NCBI RefSeq assembly: GCF_000582535.1
Contig: NZ_CP006932.1
Span: forward strand, 120,001-152,000
DNA length: 32,000 bases
From: Candidatus Saccharimonadota bacterium
GTDB lineage: Bacteria; Bacillota_I; Bacilli_A; Mycoplasmatales; Hepatoplasmataceae
Direction of reading: 5' to 3'
The notes beneath the pieces were generated by a model that saw nothing but the letters and a program-made list of their open reading frames with translations, ran no database searches and was not told the DNA's origin. How positions within the stretch are numbered: position 1 is the stretch's first letter; each line of letters starts with the position of its first letter. The position numbers and the translations under genes were made by a program. This document shows positions 2,862-31,183 of the stretch, in pieces.

Positions 2862-3929
2862 ATGGAAAAACAACTCATTGAAAATTTAGAAGAGATTAAG
2901 AAAAAATATCAAGATCTTGATCAAAAAATTATTAAAGAAACAAAAAATAATAATTTTGAAATTATTAAAGAATATGCAAAAGAACAGAAAAAATATCAAT
3001 TTACATATCAACTTTATATTAAATATCTTGATTTAAAAGAAGAAATAAAAGATTCTGAATCAATTTTGGAATTAGAAGATGATAAAAAATTAATTAATGA
3101 ACTTAAAAAATTAATTTCAAATAATAAAAAAGAAATTAATATATTAGAAGAAAAATTATTAGATTCTTTAATTGAAAAAGATCCCATTGATAAATACAAT
3201 GCTTTTATTGAAATTAAAGGAGCTGCTGGTGGTTTAGAAGCTAATATTTTTGCAAATGATCTTTTAGATATGTATTTAAAATATGCACAAAAAATAGGCT
3301 TTAAAGCAAAAATAATAGATTTACAAGAATCAGAAAAAAAAGGTATTTCTTATGTTAATTTTAAAATTATGGGAGAAGGAGCATATGGAAGATTTAAATA
3401 TGAATCTGGTGTCCATAGAGTACAAAGAATTCCTGAAACAGAAAGTAATGGAAGAATTCATACTTCAACAGCAACAGTATCTGTTACTCCTGAATTAGAT
3501 GATTTAGATTTAAAGATAAATAAAAGTGATTTAAGAATTGATACTTATAGATCTTCTGGTGCTGGGGGACAACATGTAAATAAAACAGATTCTGCTGTAA
3601 GAATTTTACATATTCCTACAGGAATTATTTCTTCTTCACAAAGCGGAAGAAGTCAACATGATAATAAAGAAAGAGCAATGCAGTCACTTAGAAGTAAAAT
3701 TTATCAACAAAAATTAGATGCAGAACAACAGAATTTAAATAAAACAAAAAAAGAAGCAGTTGGAACAGGTGATCGTGCAGAAAAAATTCGAACATATAAT
3801 TATCAACAGAATCGTGTTACCGATCATCGTATAAATTTAACTTTAAAAAAATTAGATATTATTATGAGTGGTGATTTAGAAGAGTTTTTAAATTTATTAC
3901 ATTCTAGTTTTAAAGATAAAAATAATTAA
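2862..3929 (+). CDS. prfA: Peptide chain release factor 1
   Basis: Intact 355-aa ORF with the GGQ motif (SSGAGGQHVNKTDSAVRILHIPTGI) and an RF1-type tripeptide region (RVQRIPETESNGRIHTSTATV). Confidence 0.95.
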   Translation: MEKQLIENLEEIKKKYQDLDQKIIKETKNNNFEIIKEYAKEQKKYQFTYQLYIKYLDLKEEIKDSESILELEDDKKLINELKKLISNNKKEINILEEKLLDSLIEKDPIDKYNAFIEIKGAAGGLEANIFANDLLDMYLKYAQKIGFKAKIIDLQESEKKGISYVNFKIMGEGAYGRFKYESGVHRVQRIPETESNGRIHTSTATVSVTPELDDLDLKINKSDLRIDTYRSSGAGGQHVNKTDSAVRILHIPTGIISSSQSGRSQHDNKERAMQSLRSKIYQQKLDAEQQNLNKTKKEAVGTGDRAEKIRTYNYQQNRVTDHRINLTLKKLDIIMSGDLEEFLNLLHSSFKDKNN

Positions 3930-4772: not shown

Positions 4773-5324
4773 ATGAAATTATTAAAAATTAATAAATTAT
4801 TAAATGATCTAAATAATAATAAAATAATAGCAATGCCTACAGAAACTGTATATGGTTTTTTTAGTCTAATTTCTCTTGAAAATTTAAAAAATATTAATAA
4901 ATTAAAAGGAAGAGAATTAGAAAAACCTTTACAAGTTTTTTTCTTAGATTTTTCTCAAATTGAAAAATATACAAAATTATCGCAATTCCAAAAGCAAATC
5001 TTAATTCAAGAATTACCAGGAAATAAATCTTTTTTAGTTCCTAGTTCTTCCTTTTTTAAAAAATTAACAAATCAAAATACAATTCTTATAAGATTACCAA
5101 TTTGAGAGCAAAAAATTTTAAAAAATACAAAAAAAGTTTTTGAAAAGATAAATGTTCCTTTATTTGCTACTTCAGCAAATCTTACAAATAATAAAGAATT
5201 TGATAATGGGAAATTAATTCAAAATGAATTTAAAATTAATGGTTTTAATAAAAAAATAAAGGCAAAAAAATCATCAATAATTATTTCTTTATTAGAGGAT
5301 AAAGTTGAGATTATTAGAAATTAA
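4773..5324 (+). CDS. tsaC: L-threonylcarbamoyladenylate synthase, YrdC/TsaC type (YwlC family)
   Basis: N-terminal IIAMPTETVYGFFS motif. The ORF continues through TGA at 5103-5105 into ...LFATSANLTN... and ends at TAA 5322-5324. The position between prmC and glyA matches Bacillus ywlC synteny. Confidence 0.75.
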
Positions 5325-19640: not shown

Positions 19641-19663
19641 TAAGTTTGTAAAAGTAATTTAAA

Positions 19664-19689
19664 GCAATCACGAAAGTGATTGTTTTTTT
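19664..19689. terminator. Rho-independent terminator between the convergent PTS gene and the minus-strand operon
   Basis: Stem CAATCAC (19665-19671), loop GAAA, stem GTGATTG (19676-19682), then T7 (19683-19689). It lies 24 nt after the PTS stop and 17 nt before the stop of the 194-aa minus-strand gene. Confidence 0.75.
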
Positions 19690-19706
19690 ATTTAAAATAT
19701 ATTTTT

Positions 19707-20291
19707 TTATAAATCTTCTTTATCATAAATCAAAAATTCAATTGTTTTTAAAGTATCTATAGAAACTATTCTTTTATAATTTATATTTAATTCATCTCCT
19801 ACATTAGATATAAAATTAAAATCTTCGAATAAATTTAAAATTTCTAAATAAATTAAATTATTTGATTCTTTTTCTGATTCAAAATCTAAATCTAAATTAT
19901 TATTAATTTTAAAATAATCAATAATTTTCTTTAAATTTTTATAATAATAAGAATTATCTTTTATAATTGATTTTTTAGTTAAATTTAATAATATAAAAAT
20001 ATTTAAAAGAATTTCATTATTAATATTTTTATTTGTAATTAATTTTAATTTATTATTTTTATCTAAAATTGTTTTTAATTCTTTAATTTCTTTTTTAAAT
20101 TTTGATATTTCTTCATCTTTATCTTTTAATTCTTTTTTTAAATGTTTTACTAAGTCATCAGATGAAAAATAATTTTTTACATTTTTTTTTAATTTCCATA
20201 TTTTTTTATTATTTTCAGTATTTGCTTCAACACTGGAATTATTATCTGGTGAATTTTTAATTTTTTTTAAAAATTTAATTTTAAAAAACAT
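19707..20291 (-). CDS. Hypothetical protein (194 aa), third gene of the ATPase-peptidase operon
   Basis: Intact ORF. The ATG at 20291 is 2 nt after the peptidase stop (20296-20294). Central Lys/Glu-rich helix (KHLKKELKDKDEEISKFKKEIKELKTILDK). No recognisable domain. Contains an A9 tract (plus-strand T9 at 20182-20190). Confidence 0.6.
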   Translation of the reverse strand: MFFKIKFLKKIKNSPDNNSSVEANTENNKKIWKLKKNVKNYFSSDDLVKHLKKELKDKDEEISKFKKEIKELKTILDKNNKLKLITNKNINNEILLNIFILLNLTKKSIIKDNSYYYKNLKKIIDYFKINNNLDLDFESEKESNNLIYLEILNLFEDFNFISNVGDELNINYKRIVSIDTLKTIEFLIYDKEDL

Positions 20292-20293
20292 AA

Positions 20294-22417
20294 TTAATTA
20301 TCCAATTCTTGTTCTAAATTTAATTCTAGATTTTTTGTTTCGATTTCTAATTTTAATTCAAATTTGTTATTTATAAATTTATTATAATATTCTTTTGAAT
20401 TTAAATTTTCACTTAAATCTTCTACCGTTATATATGAATAAAATTCAATTTCTTTAGAATCATCAAAATGCTCTCTATAATTTCTAGTAAAATTTATTAT
20501 AAATTCAGAAATGTTATATCTAGTTTTTCTTAAATCTATAATAAATGAATTTATTCTTTGATATTTTCCAAAATCATTAACAAGATTTTTTTCGTATCTC
20601 ATAAATTCTCCATTTTTAATATCTATTTTACCTATTATTTCTTTTCCTGAAGATATACTTTGTAATTTTTCATTTGAGGAATTAAAATATTGAAAACTTC
20701 CAATAACATTACTTTCTACTTTTTCTAATCCTCTTTCAAAATTTAAAGATGAATTAGAAATAATTGTTATGTAAATTTTAAAATTATTTGAATTATTTGG
20801 TAAAGGTATTTTTTTAACTTTAAAATGTCTTGAATCTATTTTTTCAAAAAAATAAATACTAAAGTATTTATTATTATTATTAATATGATCAAAATTTGCT
20901 TTTGATCATATTCCGTTACCATATAATTCAAAATTTTTATTATTAAAATTATTATTAATCATTGAATTATTTATTATTAAAATTTCAGTTTTTTTTATTA
21001 ATTCTTTTTTATTTAGTGAATTTAAATTGTAAAAATTTGTTTTCCATATTTTTTTTAAAATATACTCAAAATTTCTAGCTAAATTAACAGCTGAAATTGA
21101 AGTACCACTTTTTTTAAAAAATTCTCCAGCAGAATATACAATTACTTTTTGATCTTCATAATCTCCTCCTCCAAAAAGTGATAAATCTGGTTTATATCCA
21201 AAAAGATTTTTTCAACCTTTTTTAGAATAATTTGTTTTTGTATTATCTAAATTTATTGAATTAACTGTTAAAGAAAAAAAAGAATCAGAAGGAGGTAATA
21301 AATAATTTTTATTTTGATTTACATATTCATCTGCATTTCCTGAGGAAATAATAATTTTTATATCGTATATAATTTGTAATTTATCTAAAAATTTAGCAAA
21401 TTCTGAAGTTAGACTTTCTTTAGGATTTATTTCTGTAATTTGATTTATTGATAAAATTCAAACTTTTATTTCATTGTGATATTTTTTAATTCCATATTCA
21501 ATTCTTTTTTTTATTTTTTCTAATGTTTCTTTGTTTTTTTCATCTCTACTTATTATCGGTATTAAAGTAACTTCAAAATTATTTTTAATTCCATCTATTG
21601 ATTTATCTGTTCATGAATTAACATTTAAGCCATTAATTAATAAAAAAGCCATCGATTCTCCATGAGAAATATTATTATAATCTCTATCTAATATTTTCAA
21701 ATTTTCTTCATATTCTTCATCTATTTTTAATCAATTTTTATATTTTTTAATTAATTCATTTTTATTTTTATAAGAAATTGTTGTATCAAATAATCCTATT
21801 TTTAAATCATTATTTTGAAATTTAGGTAAATTAATATCTTCTAATGACAGATCATTAATTTGTAATCCTTCTTCATCGGTTTGTCCTTTGAATTTATCTT
21901 TAAAATTATTATTATTAAATTCTTCTTTATCAAAATTTTCTACGGTTAAAGAAATATTTTTTAAATATAAAATAGAAATACTTTTTAATTCTCTTGAAAT
22001 TAATTTTATTTGATCAATTTTAGTTATAGGAAAAGAATGATTATAATTATCTATTCCTTCAATTATTTTTTTAACAAAAGAATTAAATTTATTTTTATTT
22101 TTTAAATTTATTTTATAACGTCTCCCAATTAGCATTTTTTCTAAATTAAAATTTTTTCTAAAATAAGCAAAACCGGGAAATTCTAAAAATTCTAAAAATA
22201 ATTTATCAAATGATAGAGATTTTGACGGGAATCTATTAAAATTTATATATAAATATTCATCATTTAATTTAATTTTTTCTAATAATGAAATTAAAATTTT
22301 TTTAATTTTTTTCAATTCTGATTCATTTAAATCTTCTGAACCTCCTTTACCAAAAATTTTTTCAATATTATCAATAGGTATTTTAATTTTATATATATTA
22401 CTCATAATTTTTTCCAT
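20294..22417 (-). CDS. S8 (subtilisin-like) serine peptidase, IetS-like. The frame is disrupted as sequenced (possible pseudogene, phase-variable gene or homopolymer sequencing error).
   Basis: Under code 4, track ORFs 21731-22417 and 20294-20602 share one frame.
- That frame has no TAA/TAG between them except TAA at 21310-21308.
- Subtilase motifs appear in the order D-H-N-S.
- Asp: KIGLFDTTIS, codon 21787-21785.
- His: NNISHGESMAF, codon 21664-21662.
- Asn: IIISSGNADEY, codon 21336-21334, found only in the +1 frame.
- Ser: KKSGTSISAVNLA, codon 21100-21098.
- Segment A (22417-21308, 369 aa) is an intact ORF.
- Segment B (21307-20294) has no ATG, TTG or GTG before 20962. Confidence 0.75.
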
Positions 22418-23471
22418 TTATTTCTTTACTTATTTTTTCTCTTGTTTTTTTAGTGAATTTATTTGATATATAAATTTCCAAATCTTTTAGAGACATTTTA
22501 TATTTATTTTTTCAATCATAAAAAATTTTTAAATTTTTATTATTTAAATTAATTTTTATTCTATTTTTATTTAAAATAAATAAATTTTTATCAAATATAA
22601 TTTCTATTAAATCATTAGAATCTTGTATTTTTGATTTTATTTCAAATGGACTCATATTAATAAAAATCTCATTATATAAAAAATCAAAAAATTTTTTTGA
22701 AAATAATTGATTTTTTTTGGTATCAGAATTAATATTTTTAGATAAATTTTTAATAATTAATTGTTTTTTAATTAAATGTATTAAATCATTGCTTGAATAT
22801 ATATCGAAATTTATTTTTAATTTAAATCTTCTAAGTAATGCTTCATCTATTTGATTTTTTAAATTTGTGGCTGCAATTAAAATTATATTTTCTGGTAGTT
22901 CATCAATTATTTGCATAAATTCAGTTATTAATCTATTAATTTCATTGATATCTTTATCATTAAATCTTTTTCCAAATAATGTTTCAACTTCATCAATATA
23001 ATATAAGTTATATCTTTTAGAATTGAAATTAAAAATATTATTTAAATTTTTAATTGATAAACCTAACTTTGAATCTAAAATTTCAGATGCTTTAATTTTT
23101 AAAAAGCTAAAATCTTTATTATGTTGTTTTAAATTATTAATTATTTCTTCAATAAAAGATGTTTTTCCTGTTCCTGGCTTTCCATACAAAAGAACTGTGT
23201 TTTTTGTTTTTTTTCCATATAATGTATCTATAATTTCAATTTTATAATTATTTATTTCTTTAGGATATATATTTTTATTTAAATTAGAAGAAAAAGATGG
23301 TTTAAAAGATGTTGAATTATTTATTATTTTTTCCAAAATTGAAATTCATTCTTTTTCATTATTAATCTTTTTATTTAATAATTCTTTTTCGAAAAATGTA
23401 CTTAAATTAAATTTATTTTGAATTTTAATTAAAAATTCAATAAAATCATTATTTGTTATTTTTTTATTCAT
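22398..23471 (-). CDS. AAA+ ATPase (classical AAA clade), IetA-like
   Basis: Under code 4 the track ORF 22512-23336 extends in both directions, giving 357 aa.
- It runs upstream to ATG 23471-23469 through TGA 23348-23346.
- It runs downstream through TGA 22514-22512 to TAA 22400-22398.
- Walker A: LLYGKPGTGKTS (23183-23160).
- Walker B: LYYIDEVETLF.
- Sensor 1: LIAATN.
- Arg-finger region: IDEALLRRF.
- It overlaps the peptidase start by 20 nt. Confidence 0.85.
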
Positions 23472-23481
23472 ATTTTTATTA

Positions 23482-23621
23482 TATAAAAATGGTGGTAAAA
23501 AGTATAAAAATGGTGGTAAAAAGTATAAAAATGGTGGTAAAAAGTATAAAAATGGTGGTAAAAAGTATAAAAATGGTGGTAAAAAGTATAAAAATGGTGG
23601 TAAAAAGTATAAAAATGGTGG
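23482..23621. repeat. Perfect 21-bp tandem repeat TATAAAAATGGTGGTAAAAAG, 6 full copies plus a 14-bp partial copy
   Basis: Direct reading. Units start at 23482, 23503, 23524, 23545, 23566, 23587 and 23608 (partial). It lies in the divergent intergenic region, 10 bp from the ATPase ATG. There is no C on the plus strand anywhere in the array. Confidence 0.97.
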
Positions 23622-23679
23622 TTTTTATGCAATTATTAATTTTATAATATAAATGTTATAATTTTAAAAATTATATAAA

Positions 23680-24207
23680 ATGGAAAATAAAACAGAAAAT
23701 AAAACAGAAAATTTTACAAAGGTTTTAAATGTAATTAATAATTACAATTTTAAAAACCCTGAAAACAAAAAATTGGTAAATGAATCATTTGAAAAAGTTG
23801 TTAATAATTTAGAAAAATTTGCTTATGAAAAAGAAGAAAAACAAGAAATAAATTTTGAAAACGTAAAAAAAATGATTTTAAAATTTATTAATGGATTTTT
23901 AAATAATTTCATGGAAGAAAAATTAAAAAAAGAACATTTAAATGATTATAAAAATTTAAATTCAATTCCAGAAAAAATTAATTTTTTGGCACAAAATCAA
24001 TATTTTGGTTATGATAGCGAAATTAATGAAGGACTATATTATCTTTTTGTAAAAGGGTCTTCAAATAATAAAGATGTAGCAAAAAAATTAATTTTAATAA
24101 ATTCAATTTATCATATCTTTAATTTGCTTTGTTGATTCTTTAATATTAATTCTAAAAAAGCAAAAAAAGAATTAAATTTAAGTAAATATTTTAATTCAGA
24201 AAAATAA
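23680..24207 (+). CDS. Hypothetical protein (175 aa)
   Basis: ATG at 23680, MENKTENKTENFTK... It continues through TGA 24133-24135 to TAA 24205-24207. No recognisable domain. Divergent from the ATPase operon. TATAAT-like hexamers at about 23644 and 23657. Confidence 0.55.
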
Positions 24208-24233
24208 TAAATTTAAAATAAAGAGGGATTAAA

Positions 24234-24440
24234 ATGTCTACAGGATTAAGTATTTTTTTTGGTTTTGTATTTTTTGTTTTAATAATATCTTTAGTAATTT
24301 TTTTAAAAAGACATAAACAAGCAAAAAAAATTAGAAGAGATGAAAGAATAAGAATAAATGAAAGAAATAAACAAATTAGAAGAGATGAAAGAATAAGAAT
24401 TGAAGAACAAAATAAAATGGAAGAAAATATTGAAAAATAA
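24234..24440 (+). CDS. Hypothetical small single-TM protein (68 aa) with an Arg/Lys/Glu-rich repeated tail
   Basis: RBS AGAGGGA lies upstream. N-terminal TM LSIFFGFVFFVLIISLVIFL, then a duplicated IRRDERIRI segment. A strong terminator follows. Confidence 0.55.
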   Translation: MSTGLSIFFGFVFFVLIISLVIFLKRHKQAKKIRRDERIRINERNKQIRRDERIRIEEQNKMEENIEK

Positions 24441-27230: not shown

Positions 27231-27812
27231 ATGAATTTAAATATTAAGAATAAGTCAATATCATATTATATATTTGGAACAGTTTTTATTTTGTTGTGAA
27301 TTATTTTTCTTATTACTTGATGTTTTGTTTATGTTGAACCAGCTGCATTAATTTTATTTATTTTATGAATTTCATCGGGTCTTATTTCTTCGCTTTTATT
27401 CATAGTTGGAGCATTTGAAAATACAAGATATAAAAATAATTTAGAAAAATTAAAAATCGAAGAAAATAAAAAAGCAAAATATCAACAATTTGATCACCAA
27501 ATTCCTGAAAAATTTAATTTAAATCAAGAAATTAAATTAGATGAAACTTCAAAAATAAAACAAGAAAAATTTTCAAAATCAGATTTTGAAAATTTTGTTG
27601 AATTTAATCCAAATATCGAAAAAATCGATAAACCAATTAAAAAAATAGAAGAAGAAAATTTCCAAAAAGTTGATCGAGAAATTCTTGCAAATTGTGAAAA
27701 AATATGTAGCAATAATTGAAAATGTATTCAAGAATGTGTTGCATTTAGTTTAAAATTTAAGGATAATTTAAATATTAAAGATTACAAATATGACGAAGAA
27801 AAGAGAAATTAA
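27231..27812 (+). CDS. Hypothetical membrane protein (193 aa) with a C-terminal Cys motif
   Basis: ATG at 27231. Two N-terminal TM segments containing three TGA=Trp, a charged middle region, then ANCEKICSNNWKCIQECVAF (CxxxC...CxxxC). Overlaps the next gene by 23 nt. Confidence 0.5.
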
Positions 27813-29442
27813 AACAAATAATAATAGGCACCAATATGGTTTATTATCAATGCTAGCAATGATTGTTGGTGTTGTTGTTGGATCTGGTGTTTATGTTGTA
27901 AATGATAGTTTATATGAATTAAGTGGAAGTGTTGGACTTATAATAATTACTTGAATTATTATAAGTGCAGTGGTTCTTTTTATGCTTGTTGCTTTTATTG
28001 AAGTAGCATCAATTACAGCTAGAACAAAAGAACCAGGAACAGTAAATAATTGATTCAGACATTTTTTTGGAAAAAAAGGTTCAAAATATATTGGAGTCTT
28101 TTTTCCAATTATTTATTTTCCAATTTTAATATCAGTTCTTGCTGTAATTGGATCAGAGCAATTATTTAATACAATTTGAATTGATGGTGATAATAGCAAA
28201 CCTTATTTAATGTTTCTTTTTGTTACAATTTTTGCTTATCTTTTTGCTTCTCTTTTTTATGGAGTAAATGCATTTACGCAAAAACCTGGGAAAATATTTC
28301 AAAATACAGGAACAATTATTAAATTAATTCCTTTATTTTTATTAATATTTTTGGGAATATTAGTTGCTGCAAATGCTTTTAGTCCGGCTAACGAAGCATT
28401 TGATAATGGAGGTAATTTCAATTTCTTTGATCCAAATGCTGCATTTAATCAAGGATGAGAAAATGGAGCAGATGGTTGAGATAGTGGTGTTAGTAATTTA
28501 GAAATTATTTTACTAATGGCTCCTACAATTATGTTTTCATTTGATGGATTTTTATTTGCTGCATCATTACAAAATGAATCAAAAAAACCTTCTACATATA
28601 AAATTGCTGCAATTACAGGAATTGTTTTTATTGTATTTATATATATAGTTTTATCATTATTTGTATTTGCTTTCGGAACTTCAGGTGAAAATCATGATTT
28701 TAGTGTTGTAAATTGCGTATTTAATATTACAGGACAAAAATGATTATCAATTATTATTGGATTAATGATTGTAATTTCTGTTTATACAGGATTTTCAGCT
28801 TGTACAATTGCCCAAAATAGAATGATTGCTGATCTTTCTGTAAATAATCAAATTCGTGATAAAAATGGTGATTTAATTGCAAGAAATAAAGCTAAAGTTC
28901 CTCAAAGAGCAGCATTATGATCATGAGGTCTTACGATCTTTTGATTAACTATTTTAAGAATTTTAGATCTGGCAATTCTTATAAGTATTATAAGTGAGGA
29001 TAGTAGTGTTATTACTTCTACTTTATTTATTTCAGGTTGATCGCTTAATTTTATAACTTTACTTTCATATAGTGTTTATACATTATTAATTATTGGAGCT
29101 TTCAAGAATCGCTTTGATAAAAAAGTTGAAGTAGAAAAAACAAAAGGATTTTATCCTGCTGCAATTATTTCAATATTTGCAATGTTTATAGTTTTAATTG
29201 TATTTACAATTAATTTATTTGATTATCGATCAATATTTGATCAAAATGACAATCTTGTTGTTTCCGGATTGCTTTCATATTTAATTCATATTTTAATGGT
29301 TATATTTATTATTTTTCTTGCTATTTTTATTCCTAATTATTTTGAAAAAGATGTAAAAAAAGTACAAAAAGAAGAATTAGAAAAAAAAGAAAAATTGATA
29401 AAACAGTATCTTAAAAATAAAACAGATCCTCGTTTTTCTTAA
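27790..29442 (+). CDS. APC-superfamily amino acid permease, paralogue 1 (550 aa)
   Basis: ATG at 27790. Track fragments 28210-28458, 28516-28743 and 29182-29442 share its frame through many TGA=Trp. N-terminal IVGVVVGSGVYVV motif and about 12 hydrophobic segments. Confidence 0.8.
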
Positions 29443-29530: not shown

Positions 29531-31183
29531 ATGTATACAAAAAATAATCTAAATAAGAAAGAACAAGGACAATATGGACTTTTATCAATGCTTGCACTTA
29601 TTGTAGGTGTTGTAATTGGATCTGGTGTTTATGTTGTAAATGATAGCTTATATAGAATTAGTAATAGTGCAGGTTTAATTATAATTACTTGGCTTTTAAT
29701 TTCTCTAGTAATTCTTTTTATGCTTGTTGCATTTATTGAAATAAGTTCAATTACAGCAAAAACGAAAGAAGCGGGAACAATTAATAATTGATTTAGACAT
29801 CTTTTTGGAGCAAAGTATTCAAAGTTTATCGGAGTCTTTTTTGCCCTTATTTATTTTCCAATTTTAATTTCTGTACTTGGTATAATTTCGGGAGAAGAGT
29901 TTTTTAAAACAATTTGACCGCTTAGTAATCAATCGCAGGGTTATGATTCTCCTTATTTAATGTTTCTTTTTGTTACAATATTTGCTTTTATTTTTATAAA
30001 TATTATTTTTACAATAAATACATATACTACAAAACCAGGAAAAAAAATTCAAGGAATTGGAACAATAATTAAATTAATTCCTTTAGTATTATTAATCTTT
30101 CTTGGATTATTAATATTAATGAATGCCTTTACAGCAAATAATCAAGCAATAAATAATGGAGAAGGAAATTTTACTTTCTTTGATCCTAATGCAGCTTTTA
30201 ATAGTGGATGAGAAAATGGTTCTAGTAATCTTAAAATAATCTTACTTATGGCTCCTACAGTGATGTTTTCGTTTGATGGTTTTTTATTTGCAGCTTCTTT
30301 ACAAAATGAATCAAAAAAAACATCAACTTATAAAGTTGCTGCTGTAAGTGGAGTTTTATTTATTATTTTAATTTATATTCTTCTTTCTTTATTTGTGTTT
30401 GCCTTTGGTGATCAAGAAGGTGGCTATATTGTTTCAAATGCTCTTTATAATATTACAGGACAAAAATGATTATCTACAATTGTAGGAATAATGATTGTAG
30501 TATCTGTAATTACAGGAATTTCGGGAAATTCAATTACACAAAATAGAATGATTGCTGATCTTTCTGTAAATAATGAAATAAAGGATTTAGATGGTAATTT
30601 AATTGCAAGAAATAAAGCAAAAGTTCCGCAAAATTCAGCAAAGTTATCCTGAATACTAGCAATTATTTGGTTTTTTATTTTTCGATTATTAGATCTTTGC
30701 ATTTTACTTAGTATTGTTGAAAATAAAGATCAATTAAATCCATTTAATACAATAAATTCAACTTTATTTGTATCAGGATGATCACTTAATTTTATAACTT
30801 TAATTTCTTATACTTTTTATGTTTTAGTAATAATTGGCGGAATAAAGAATCGTTTCGATAAAAAAGTAGAAGTAGAAAAAAATAAATTATTCTATCCTGC
30901 AGCATTTATCTCAGTTTTTATGATATTTATTATTTTAATTGTATTTACAATTGATTTATTTGATTATCGATCAATATTTACTGATTCTAATCAATTAATA
31001 GTTTCTGAACTTGTATCTTATATTTTTCATATAATAATTTTAATTACAATAATTTCAATAATAATCGCTGTTCCAATTTATTTTGAAAAAGATGTAAAAA
31101 AAGCAAATCAAGAAAAATTAAAAGCAAAAGAAAAATTAATAAAAGCATATAAAATGCAAAAAACAGATCCTAGATATAAATAA
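29531..31183 (+). CDS. APC-superfamily amino acid permease, paralogue 2 (550 aa)
   Basis: RBS TAGGAG then ATG at 29531. Fragments 29960-30211, 30248-30469 and 30920-31183 are in frame. It is colinear with paralogue 1 from QYGLLSMLA to the C-terminal FEKDVKK...KTDPR tail. Confidence 0.8.

What the first reader, a model, noticed from the sequence alone, without database searches (positions are those of the whole stretch)
23482..23621. Perfect 21-bp tandem array (6.7 copies) 10 bp upstream of the ATPase start, stacking promoter-like hexamers
**What is there**
- The unit TATAAAAATGGTGGTAAAAAG is repeated without a single mismatch.
- It fills most of the divergent intergenic region between the ATPase operon (ATG at 23471) and the 175-aa plus-strand gene (23680).
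- The 21-bp period is about two helical turns, so every copy presents the same face of the helix.
- Perfect identity implies recent expansion or ongoing homogenisation, so copy number is probably unstable.

**Promoter-like content**
- Read toward the ATPase (minus strand), each repeat junction gives TTTATA, a 17-nt spacer, then TATACT. That is a -35-like/-10-like pair with canonical spacing, repeated at every junction between units.
- On the plus strand each unit carries TATAAA.
- Because the array nearly touches the ATG, the operon promoter must lie in or beyond it.

**Hypotheses**
- A copy-number-dependent expression switch for the ATPase/protease operon.
- An array of operator sites for a regulator.
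- Iteron-like remnants of a plasmid or phage replicon. This would fit the plasmid-stability history of ietAS-type modules, but no rep gene is recognisable.
Basis: partly seen in the sequence, partly recalled or inferred. Interest (0 to 1): 0.6.

Follow-up and report, generated by a model that had tools for sequence, protein, structure and literature searches.

The report
Curved 21-bp repeat array upstream of ietAS
A perfect 21-bp repeat array, predicted to be strongly bent DNA, sits between two back-to-back promoters at the edge of a strain-specific anti-phage gene cassette in an isopod gut symbiont; it is real and unique to this strain, but any regulatory role is inferred, not shown.

Summary
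TATAAAAATGGTGGTAAAAAG is repeated 6.7 times without a mismatch at 23482..23622, 10 nt from the ATPase ATG. The window is Candidatus Hepatoplasma crinochetorum Av (genetic code 4), and the minus-strand genes are an IetA/IetS defence pair plus an orphan 194-aa gene.

New findings:
- The array lies at the right edge of about 3.9 kb of Av-specific DNA. In other Hepatoplasma genomes this slot is empty or holds RmuC or a GmrSD-like gene. None of them has the array or a single unit.
- The unit occurs nowhere else in the collections searched, apart from single chance hits.
- Each unit carries two A5 tracts 12 and 9 bp apart. The 13 tracts are in helical phase, and the array is predicted to be by far the most curved DNA in the window.
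- No mollicute-type -10 box (TANAAT) lies inside the array. It sits between a junction TATAAT 6 nt before the ietA ATG and the conserved TGTTATAAT promoter of the 175-aa gene.

Best reading: a recently expanded slippage minisatellite acting as curved upstream DNA whose copy number could tune transcription. A neutral by-product is nearly as likely. The iteron idea is not supported. Copy number rests on one gap-filled short-read assembly.

The parts
23482..23622 (.). Perfect tandem array of 6.7 copies of the 21-bp unit TATAAAAATGGTGGTAAAAAG. It carries 13 A-tracts of at least 4 nt in helical phase and is predicted to be strongly curved DNA.
   Evidence: TRF, pattern search, curvature and phasing computation, contig breaks in independent sequencing runs.
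23478..23483 (-). Consensus -10 box TATAAT, formed by the first two bases of the array plus flanking sequence. It ends 6 nt before the ietA ATG, which is the geometry of a leaderless mRNA. Candidate ietA promoter.
   Evidence: Sequence. It is the only minus-strand TANAAT within 160 nt of the ATG. ietA has no Shine-Dalgarno sequence. The geometry alone is not statistically significant.
22398..23471 (-). ietA: a 357-aa AAA+ ATPase (AHK22252.1).
   Evidence: Pfam AAA 1.4e-23, PADLOC IetA 4.3e-30, exact look-up.
20294..22417 (-). ietS: a 707-aa IetS-type protease partner. It overlaps ietA by 20 nt.
   Evidence: PADLOC IetS 4e-32. Partners of the nearest IetA relatives carry Peptidase_S8.
19707..20291 (-). 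Orphan 194-aa gene, third in the cassette, function unknown.
   Evidence: No family hits. It is the only member of its 90% cluster. The structure model is unusable.
19703..23647 (.). Av-specific cargo segment of a variable defence slot. The array lies 25 nt from its right border.
   Evidence: BLAST of the window against other Hepatoplasma loci, gene maps, border sequences.
23654..23662 (+). Extended -10 box TGTTATAAT, the core promoter of the 175-aa gene. The TATAAT is conserved in all five slot contexts. It places the array at about -47 to -187 from that gene's transcription start.
   Evidence: Comparison of upstream regions in Av, L006, L007, L021 and L022; TANAAT scan.
23680..24207 (+). The 175-aa gene (AHK22253.1), transcribed divergently from ietA. 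It belongs to a Hepatoplasma-only family and is homologous to the N-terminal module of a GmrSD-like protein in another strain.

Best explanation
The array is a recently expanded minisatellite generated by replication slippage. It forms the upstream promoter DNA of the strain-specific ietA-ietS-p194 defence cassette.

Shown:
- It is non-coding for ietA, perfect, unique to this lineage, and part of the cassette DNA.
- Each 21-bp unit spans two helical turns and carries two A5 tracts, so the 13 tracts add up in phase. The array is predicted to be an arc of very roughly 235-290 degrees.
- It is bracketed by two outward-facing consensus -10 boxes. One is the TATAAT at the array/flank junction, 6 nt before the ietA ATG. 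The other is the conserved TGTTATAAT of the 175-aa gene, 35 nt beyond the other end.

Inferred:
- ietA is transcribed from the junction TATAAT as a leaderless or near-leaderless mRNA.
- The array acts as intrinsically curved, UP-element-like upstream DNA for this promoter, and possibly for the divergent one. It would help or hinder RNA polymerase or a nucleoid protein such as HU in engaging the DNA.
- Slippage adds or removes whole units. That changes the amount of curvature and the distance between the two promoters while keeping their helical phase. Copy number could therefore tune expression of a potentially toxic defence module.
For: - Perfect array.
- A-tract phasing vector of 11.7 out of 13, against a maximum of 6.6 anywhere else in 32 kb.
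- End-to-end/contour ratio of 0.22-0.43 in three wedge models. The rest of the window has a mean of 0.93-0.95 and a minimum of 0.61-0.77. Only 0.4-0.6% of shuffled-unit arrays with the same period and composition are as curved.
- Not a coding extension of ietA: that frame has a stop just upstream of the array and no start codon inside it.
- No significant RNA structure on either strand and no Rfam family.
- The array lies inside Av-specific DNA, next to the conserved promoter of the 175-aa gene.
- The junction TATAAT is the only consensus TANAAT near the ietA ATG, and the array interior has none. ietA lacks a Shine-Dalgarno sequence although about half of the window's genes have one.
- In M. 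pneumoniae the Pribnow box is the main promoter determinant and -35 boxes are rare (PMC4402517).
- Phased A-boxes upstream of a promoter, combined with a slippage-prone repeat, act as a rheostat in H. pylori sabA (PMC4081817).
- A second slippage event, a 12-bp duplication, lies about 55 bp away in the 175-aa gene. This shows that slippage is active locally.
Against: - No transcription data, no copy-number variation data and no protein-binding data exist.
- A TANAAT 4-9 nt before a start codon is expected by chance in about 1.2 of 30 genes, and exactly one was seen.
- Any 21-bp tandem repeat amplifies whatever bend its unit has, so part of the curvature follows automatically from the period.
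- The wedge parameters were recalled from memory, although the model-free phasing measure agrees with them.
- The nearest IetAS loci have ordinary promoters and no arrays, so the array is not a conserved feature of the system.
- Distal TANAAT boxes at 23644..23639 and beyond could be the real ietA promoter, which would make the array a 5' leader.
Confidence: 0.4

Rival explanations
1. The array is a neutral by-product. A 21-bp segment in a non-essential spacer of a recently acquired cassette expanded by slippage. It has no effect on expression, and its curvature and promoter-like hexamers are incidental consequences of an A-rich unit repeated at 21 bp.
For: - The array is absent from all other Hepatoplasma genomes and from all IetAS relatives examined, so nothing shows conservation or selection.
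- Perfect identity indicates youth.
- Nearby 12-bp slippage.
- The promoter-like sites are of chance-level quality.
- Intergenic tandem repeats are common in mycoplasma 5' regions, with only correlative links to expression (PMC5179023).
Against: - Only about 0.5% of shuffled units give comparable curvature.
- 141 bp of strongly bent DNA directly abutting one -10 box, and ending 35 nt from the other, is physically unlikely to be transcriptionally inert (inference from established work on upstream curved DNA).
- Hepatoplasma genomes are streamlined. No comparable array occurs in the 32-kb window or in about 52 kb of other strains.
Confidence: 0.33
2. The array is a row of protein-binding sites. 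Each unit, perhaps through its only G-containing core TGGTGG/CCACCA, binds a regulator or nucleoid-associated protein on one face of the helix. The resulting filament or loop would repress or activate the divergent promoters.
For: - Identical sites at exactly two helical turns.
- The position between two divergent core promoters.
- The G-rich core stands out in 23% GC DNA.
- Curved DNA is a preferred substrate of HU-type proteins (established knowledge).
Against: - No DNA-binding domain was detected in any neighbouring protein.
- The 175-aa protein is conserved in strains that lack the array, so it cannot depend on it.
- The motif occurs nowhere else in the window, so there is no regulon.
- The structure models were too poor to test for a helix-turn-helix fold.
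Confidence: 0.12
3. The array is transcribed and acts in RNA or as a peptide. It could be a pyrimidine-rich 5' leader of about 160 nt for ietA, made from a distal promoter. Or it could be a small plus-strand ORF encoding (MVVKSIK)n, at 23489..23647.
For: - Distal minus-strand TANAAT boxes at 23644..23639, 23666..23661 and 23675..23670.
- The plus-strand frame has an ATG in every unit and stays open for 52-64 codons.
Against: - No RNA structure beyond shuffled controls (z = -0.9 and -0.8).
- No Rfam hit.
- No Shine-Dalgarno sequence before any ATG in the array.
- No homologue: the exact unit is absent from all collections.
- The only similar repeats found are unrelated NGGSSVV coding heptads.
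Confidence: 0.06
4. The repeats are iterons left over from a plasmid or phage replicon that brought in the ietAS module.
For: - Seven direct repeats of about 21-22 bp resemble iteron arrays such as that of the R6K gamma origin (recalled knowledge).
- ietAS was first described as a plasmid stability module (recalled knowledge).
- The cassette is foreign DNA with a lower GC content (15-19%) than the genome.
Against: - No Rep-like protein in the cassette or its flanks.
- No real match in 72,556 plasmids or 50,697 phages or in IMG/VR.
- The genome paper reports no detectable phage, plasmid, transposon or insertion-sequence genes (PMC3942034).
- Functional iterons are usually imperfect copies separated by variable spacers, not perfect head-to-tail copies.
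- GC skew shows no origin here.
Confidence: 0.03

Closest known systems
Promoter-proximal repeat 'rheostats' and contingency loci: H. pylori sabA T-tract (PMC4081817), H. influenzae hmw1A/hmw2A 7-bp repeats (PMC8262952), M. gallisepticum vlhA GAA repeats (recalled)
   Same: - A slippage-prone repeat lies in or next to a core promoter.
- Phased A-boxes and curvature upstream are implicated in RNA polymerase contact.
- Copy number is expected to give graded expression in an organism with few transcription factors.
   Different: - The unit here is 21 bp, not 1-7 bp, so each step is two whole helical turns. The helical phase between flanking elements is preserved, not rotated.
- The repeat itself supplies the A-tracts.
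- The target is a defence cassette, not a surface protein.
- No copy-number variation or expression effect has been shown here.
Static upstream curved DNA activating promoters: phased A-tracts upstream of Clostridium perfringens plc, and synthetic curved DNA replacing activator sites in E. coli (recalled knowledge)
   Same: A5-type tracts phased at about 10.5 bp lie immediately upstream of a core promoter (about -47 to -187 for the 175-aa gene; -11 to -151 for the candidate ietA promoter).
   Different: - Known cases have 3-5 imperfectly repeated tracts fixed in the species.
- Here 13 tracts arise from a perfect, strain-specific minisatellite.
- The array lies between two divergent promoters.
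Plasmid iterons (for example R6K, with seven 22-bp repeats)
   Same: The number, length and helical-phase spacing of the direct repeats.
   Different: - No rep gene, no plasmid or phage context, and no sequence relatives.
- Perfect, contiguous copies.
- A chromosomal defence slot.
Bacterial intergenic VNTRs and minisatellites used for MLVA typing (for example M. tuberculosis MIRU/VNTR; PMC12817950 reports phase-variable tandem-repeat copy number)
   Same: A unit of tens of bp, an intergenic location, expansion driven by slippage or recombination, and possible effects on neighbouring promoters.
   Different: - This locus exists in only one lineage, because the whole cassette is strain-specific.
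- Polymorphism has not been measured.

Membership tests
Iterons of a plasmid or phage replicon | Several direct repeats of 17-22 bp in helical phase | tested here: met
   6.7 copies of a 21-bp unit. The copies are perfect and contiguous, unlike typical iterons.
Iterons of a plasmid or phage replicon | A cognate Rep initiator gene adjacent | tested here: not met
   No Rep family hit in Pfam, PHROGs or NCBIfam for the 194-aa and 175-aa proteins. The other two genes are IetA and IetS.
Iterons of a plasmid or phage replicon | Location on, or clear derivation from, a plasmid or phage, with relatives elsewhere | tested here: not met
   The locus is a chromosomal slot between a PTS gene and the 175-aa gene. 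There are no real hits in plasmids, phages or IMG/VR.
Promoter repeat contingency locus (phase or rheostat variation) | A slippage-prone repeat within or adjoining a core promoter | tested here: met
   The array abuts the junction TATAAT (23483..23478). It ends 35 nt from the conserved TATAAT of the 175-aa gene's promoter.
Promoter repeat contingency locus (phase or rheostat variation) | Copy number varies within or between populations | not testable with these tools
   k=31 contigs from three runs break in the array and show only that there are at least 2.7 copies. Only CP006932 resolves the array. Other strains lack the cassette.
Promoter repeat contingency locus (phase or rheostat variation) | Expression of the adjacent gene depends on copy number | not testable with these tools
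   This needs reporter assays or transcriptomics.
Upstream intrinsically curved DNA / UP-like element | A-tracts phased at about 10-11 bp | tested here: met
   13 tracts with a phasing vector of 11.7 out of 13, and extreme predicted curvature in three models.
Upstream intrinsically curved DNA / UP-like element | Located upstream of a functional core promoter | tested here: inconclusive
   The -10 box of the 175-aa gene is conserved in five contexts but no TSS has been mapped. The ietA promoter is inferred only.
Upstream intrinsically curved DNA / UP-like element | Measured bend and a measured effect on transcription | not testable with these tools
   This needs gel-mobility or AFM measurements and promoter assays.
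IetAS defence system (the neighbouring genes) | An AAA+ ATPase (IetA) adjacent to an IetS protease in one operon | tested here: met
   PADLOC IetA 4.3e-30 and IetS 4e-32. The genes overlap by 20 nt. Pfam did not detect Peptidase_S8 in this IetS, though partners of the nearest relatives have it.

The most novel reading that the evidence does not exclude
The array is a phase-preserving curvature rheostat. Its unit is exactly two helical turns carrying two phased A-tracts. Slippage therefore changes the arc of bent DNA, and the spacing between two divergent promoters, without rotating them relative to each other. This would give heritable but reversible, graded expression of a potentially toxic IetAS defence module, and of its neighbour, in a genome-reduced symbiont with very few transcription factors. 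It would extend repeat-based phase variation from 1-7-bp tracts and surface antigens to a 21-bp minisatellite and an anti-phage system.
Probability: 0.15. Interest if true: 0.55.

Novelty: new member of a known kind. Interest (0 to 1): 0.33.

Why it matters
If the array does tune ietAS expression, it would show how a minimal genome lacking classical regulators controls a costly defence module, using only DNA shape and slippage. It would also add a minisatellite-scale mechanism to the repertoire of bacterial contingency loci.

Two practical points hold regardless of function:
- The array is a ready-made VNTR marker for the Av lineage of an unculturable isopod symbiont.
- Its copy number in the reference genome should be treated as provisional.

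The side finding may be more immediately useful. One chromosomal slot exists in four states: empty, RmuC, GmrSD-like, and IetAS. This documents a defence-island hotspot in Hepatoplasma that the two genome papers consulted here do not mention; the 2024 paper's defence survey lists only restriction-modification and CRISPR systems.

Tried and rejected
- **Exact-unit scans.** GTDB species representatives, JGI metagenomes and IMG/VR gave only eight single hits, all in unrelated genomes with no homology to the window. The unit is therefore not a dispersed repeat and has no relatives.
- **BLAST against plasmids and phages.** The only hit of note was 69% identity to L. salivarius megaplasmids. It proved to be an unrelated AT-rich 32-bp imperfect repeat.
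- **Degenerate core search.** AATGGTGGT-N12-AATGGTGGT in IMG/VR returned more than 120 hits. Those inspected, including all with three or more cores in register, are coding N-G-G heptads such as NGGSSVV, and none resembles the unit between the cores.
- **Coding roles.**
  - The ietA frame has a stop just upstream of the array and no start inside it.
  - The YKNGGKK frame has no start codon in 134 codons.
  - The MVVKSIK ORF cannot be excluded but has no support.
- **RNA roles.** No Rfam hit and no structure beyond shuffled controls.
- **Arrays upstream of other IetAS loci.** The nearest relatives (34% identity) have ordinary TTGACT/TATAAT promoters.
- **Local origin of the unit.** The start region of the 175-aa gene matches the unit junction at 17 of 19 positions. 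Several unrelated sites in the window score as well or better, so this is only a weak hint.
- **DNA-binding or Rep folds.** AlphaFold models of the 175-aa and 194-aa proteins had pLDDT of 54 and 40, too poor for a fold search.
- **Chi-site resemblance.** TGGTGG matches the 3' part of the E. coli chi site GCTGGTGG. I considered this from memory and set it aside. The first two bases differ, mollicutes generally lack RecBCD, and it cannot be tested in this window.
- **DnaA box or origin.** The closest reading, TTACCACCA against the TTATCCACA consensus, has three mismatches, and GC skew shows no switch here.
- **Exact-protein look-ups.** I worked around this with a TGA-free ORF and with cluster-member ids.

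Full report
**Observation**

The sequence at 23482..23622 is a head-to-tail array of the 21-bp unit TATAAAAATGGTGGTAAAAAG. It has six full copies plus 15 bases and not a single mismatch.
- Its Tandem Repeats Finder score of 282 is by far the highest in the 32-kb window.
- The unit and its core occur only in the array.
- The array starts 10 nt from the ATG of the minus-strand ATPase gene (23471). It fills 141 of the 208 intergenic bases up to the ATG of the plus-strand 175-aa gene (23680).
Everything else in the description is accurate, including the five TTTATA-17-TATACT pairs on the minus strand.

**Organism and genes**

The window has 23% GC. It gives long ORFs only with genetic code 4, in which TGA encodes Trp. 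Exact protein look-ups identify it as Candidatus Hepatoplasma crinochetorum Av, whose genome is 657,101 bp.

| Gene | Coordinates | Identification |
|---|---|---|
| 357-aa ATPase | 22398..23471 (-) | IetA, PADLOC 4e-30; Pfam AAA |
| 707-aa protein | 20294..22417 (-) | IetS, PADLOC 4e-32 |
| 194-aa ORF | 19707..20291 (-) | Orphan, no family hits |
| 175-aa gene (p175) | 23680..24207 (+) | Family found only in Hepatoplasma |

**Is the array real, and is 6.7 reliable?**

k=31 Logan contigs from three independent runs carry the flanking genes at identical offsets.
- In the two runs whose DNA could be read, the contigs are identical to the window. They stop exactly 30 nt (k-1) into the array, from the ATPase side in SRR3458570 and from the p175 side in both runs.
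- This is the expected behaviour of a de Bruijn graph at a tandem repeat, and it requires at least 2.7 copies.
- The array and both of its junctions are therefore real.
- The exact number comes only from the reference assembly, which used short reads at k=49, SSPACE and GapFiller, with PCR and Sanger validation at the 24 contig junctions (PMC3942034). It should be treated as provisional.

**Genomic context**

The segment 19703..23647 has no counterpart in other Hepatoplasma genomes. The same slot lies between the fructose-type PTS gene and the p175 homologue, and it exists in four states:

| State of the slot | Where seen | Calls |
|---|---|---|
| Empty | Ca. H. scabrum AP027133 and one Logan sample | 58, 59 |
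| RmuC-family gene | Three assemblies | 20 |
| 827-aa GmrSD-like gene | AP027132 | 19, 75 |
| IetAS cassette plus array | Av | this window |

- None of the other states has the array or anything within 5 mismatches of a unit. TRF also finds no comparable array in about 52 kb of DNA from other strains.
- The left border of the cargo is the PTS gene's terminator hairpin.
- The right border is the p175 promoter. Its TATAAT is conserved in all five contexts, and in Av it reads TGTTATAAT at 23654..23662.
- The array therefore belongs to the cassette, 25 nt from its right edge.
- The cassette's IetA has no relative above 34% identity anywhere, so its source cannot be traced.
- The nearest IetAS loci have conventional promoters and no arrays.

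**Uniqueness**

The exact unit was scanned against three collections: one genome per prokaryotic species, JGI metagenomes, and IMG/VR.
- Only eight isolated hits were found, all in unrelated DNA.
- BLAST against plasmid and phage records gave nothing real.
- The array is therefore not a dispersed repeat, and it has no plasmid or phage relatives.

**What the array is physically**

Each unit contains two A5 tracts whose centres are 12 and 9 bp apart. The array is thus a train of 13 A-tracts at a mean spacing of 10.5 bp.
- A model-free phasing measure, the vector sum of tract centres at a 10.5-bp period, gives 11.7 out of 13. The maximum in any other 141-bp window of the 32 kb is 6.6.
- Three dinucleotide wedge models (Bolshoy-Trifonov, De Santis and AA-wedge, with parameters recalled from memory) predict an end-to-end/contour ratio of 0.22-0.43. 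The rest of the window has a mean of 0.93-0.95 and a minimum of 0.61-0.77.
- If the bend is planar, that ratio corresponds to an arc of roughly 235-290 degrees.
- Only 0.4-0.6% of arrays built from shuffled units with the same period and composition are as curved. The curvature is therefore not just an automatic result of the 21-bp period.

**What the array is not**

- *Not an N-terminal extension of IetA.* That frame has a stop just upstream of the array and no start codon within it.
- *Not coding in the YKNGGKK frame.* That frame has no start codon in 134 codons.
- *A small ORF cannot be formally excluded.* A plus-strand ORF of 52-64 codons encoding MVVKSIK repeats is possible, but it has no ribosome-binding site and no homologue.
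- *Not a structured RNA.* Neither strand folds better than shuffled controls, and Rfam finds nothing.
- *Not accompanied by a recognisable Rep or DNA-binding protein*. However, AlphaFold models of p175 and p194 were too poor (pLDDT 54 and 40) for a fold test.

**Promoters**

In M. pneumoniae the near-invariant promoter determinant is a TANAAT Pribnow box, and -35 boxes are rare (PMC4402517). I applied that rule here.
- There is no TANAAT anywhere inside the array on either strand.
- On the minus strand, the only TANAAT within 160 nt of the ietA ATG is TATAAT at 23483..23478. It is made from the first two bases of the array plus flanking sequence, and it ends 6 nt before the ATG. That is the geometry of a leaderless mRNA.
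- ietA also lacks a Shine-Dalgarno sequence, whereas about half of the window's genes have one.
- This geometry is suggestive, not significant. With 6.5 TANAAT per kb per strand, about 1.2 of 30 genes should show it by chance, and exactly one does.
- Three distal minus-strand boxes (23644..23639, 23666..23661 and 23675..23670) could instead drive a transcript with the array as its leader.
- On the plus strand, the conserved TGTTATAAT places the array at about -47 to -187 from the p175 start. That is where UP elements and curved activating DNA act.

**Mechanism**

The best-supported reading is that the array is a young slippage minisatellite. It serves as intrinsically curved upstream DNA for the cassette's promoter, and probably also for the divergent p175 promoter.
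- One unit is exactly two helical turns. Gaining or losing units changes the bend and the distance between promoters without rotating the promoters relative to each other.
- This would make it a possible copy-number rheostat, analogous in logic to the H. pylori sabA T-tract with its phased A-box system (PMC4081817).
- A 12-bp slippage duplication about 55 bp away turns the p175 N-terminus MENKTENF into MENKTENKTENF. It shows that slippage operates at this locus.
- All functional steps are inferred. A neutral by-product is almost as likely, because nothing shows conservation or selection.
- An operator or nucleoid-protein array remains possible.
- The iteron idea fails two of its three defining features.

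**Verdict**

The feature is real, striking in its perfection and its predicted curvature, and specific to one lineage. It fits known categories: an intergenic VNTR, promoter-proximal repeats, and upstream curved DNA. It therefore counts as a new member of a known kind, of moderate interest. Testable predictions are listed under the next steps.

Noticed in passing
window 19641..23679; L006 7360..10000; L007 8717..10000; L021 7839..8000; L022 5335..5464: A defence-island hotspot in Hepatoplasma. The slot between the PTS gene and the p175 homologue is empty (Ca. H. scabrum and one Logan sample), or holds RmuC, a GmrSD-like gene, or IetAS+p194 (Av). The two Hepatoplasma genome papers consulted do not mention IetAS or this slot. 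The 2024 paper's defence survey lists only restriction-modification and CRISPR systems.
   Followed up: yes
window 23680..24207; L006 7462..7992: The 175-aa protein is homologous over its whole length (33% identity, E = 3e-21) to the N-terminal 177 residues of the 827-aa GmrSD-like protein of strain AP027132. That protein's GmrSD_N domain starts only at residue 210. p175 therefore looks like a stand-alone copy of a defence-protein N-terminal module.
   Followed up: partly
window 23675..23712: A 12-bp tandem repeat (ATAAAACAGAAA, 3.2 copies) at the 5' end of the 175-aa gene gives MENKTENKTENF in Av, against MENKTENF in the other Hepatoplasma crinochetorum-type assemblies compared. This is a second slippage event about 55 bp from the array.
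   Followed up: partly
L006 10581..11249 (+); L007 10745..11422 (-); absent from window around 24207..24234: There is a second variable slot just downstream of the p175 homologue. A 222/225-aa gene with an N-terminal membrane helix is present in opposite orientations in two strains, and absent in Av and Ca. H. scabrum. By eye it has a GIY...YIG...R..H-like motif, but Pfam gives no hit.
   Followed up: partly
L016 about 4900..5000; L017 about 4900..5000; L018 about 3370..3470: The nearest IetA relatives are on Firmicute-like contigs of 27% GC. They share a TTGACT-17-TATAAT promoter in which a direct repeat, TTTGTCCCAAA, flanks the -35 box. This looks like a conserved operator for that IetAS clade.
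   Followed up: no
window 24324..24417; L006 11478..11571: A 45-bp repeat of 2.1 copies lies inside the small 68-aa membrane-protein gene and encodes a lysine/arginine/glutamate-rich repeat. It is conserved between strains.
   Followed up: no
L043 1085..1150; L114 6383..6520: IMG/VR contigs of 25-26% GC carry near-perfect 21-nt tandem repeats. These encode NGGSSVV heptads at the C-terminus of an ORF. An in-frame TGA follows shortly after, suggesting a host that uses genetic code 4.
   Followed up: no
window 27790..29442 and 29531..31183: Two tandem paralogous amino-acid permease genes of 550 aa each share about 73% nucleotide identity. The pair is conserved in other strains.
   Followed up: no
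window 20001..23000: The IetAS cassette has 15-19% GC, lower than the 23% of the window. This is consistent with foreign origin.
   Followed up: no
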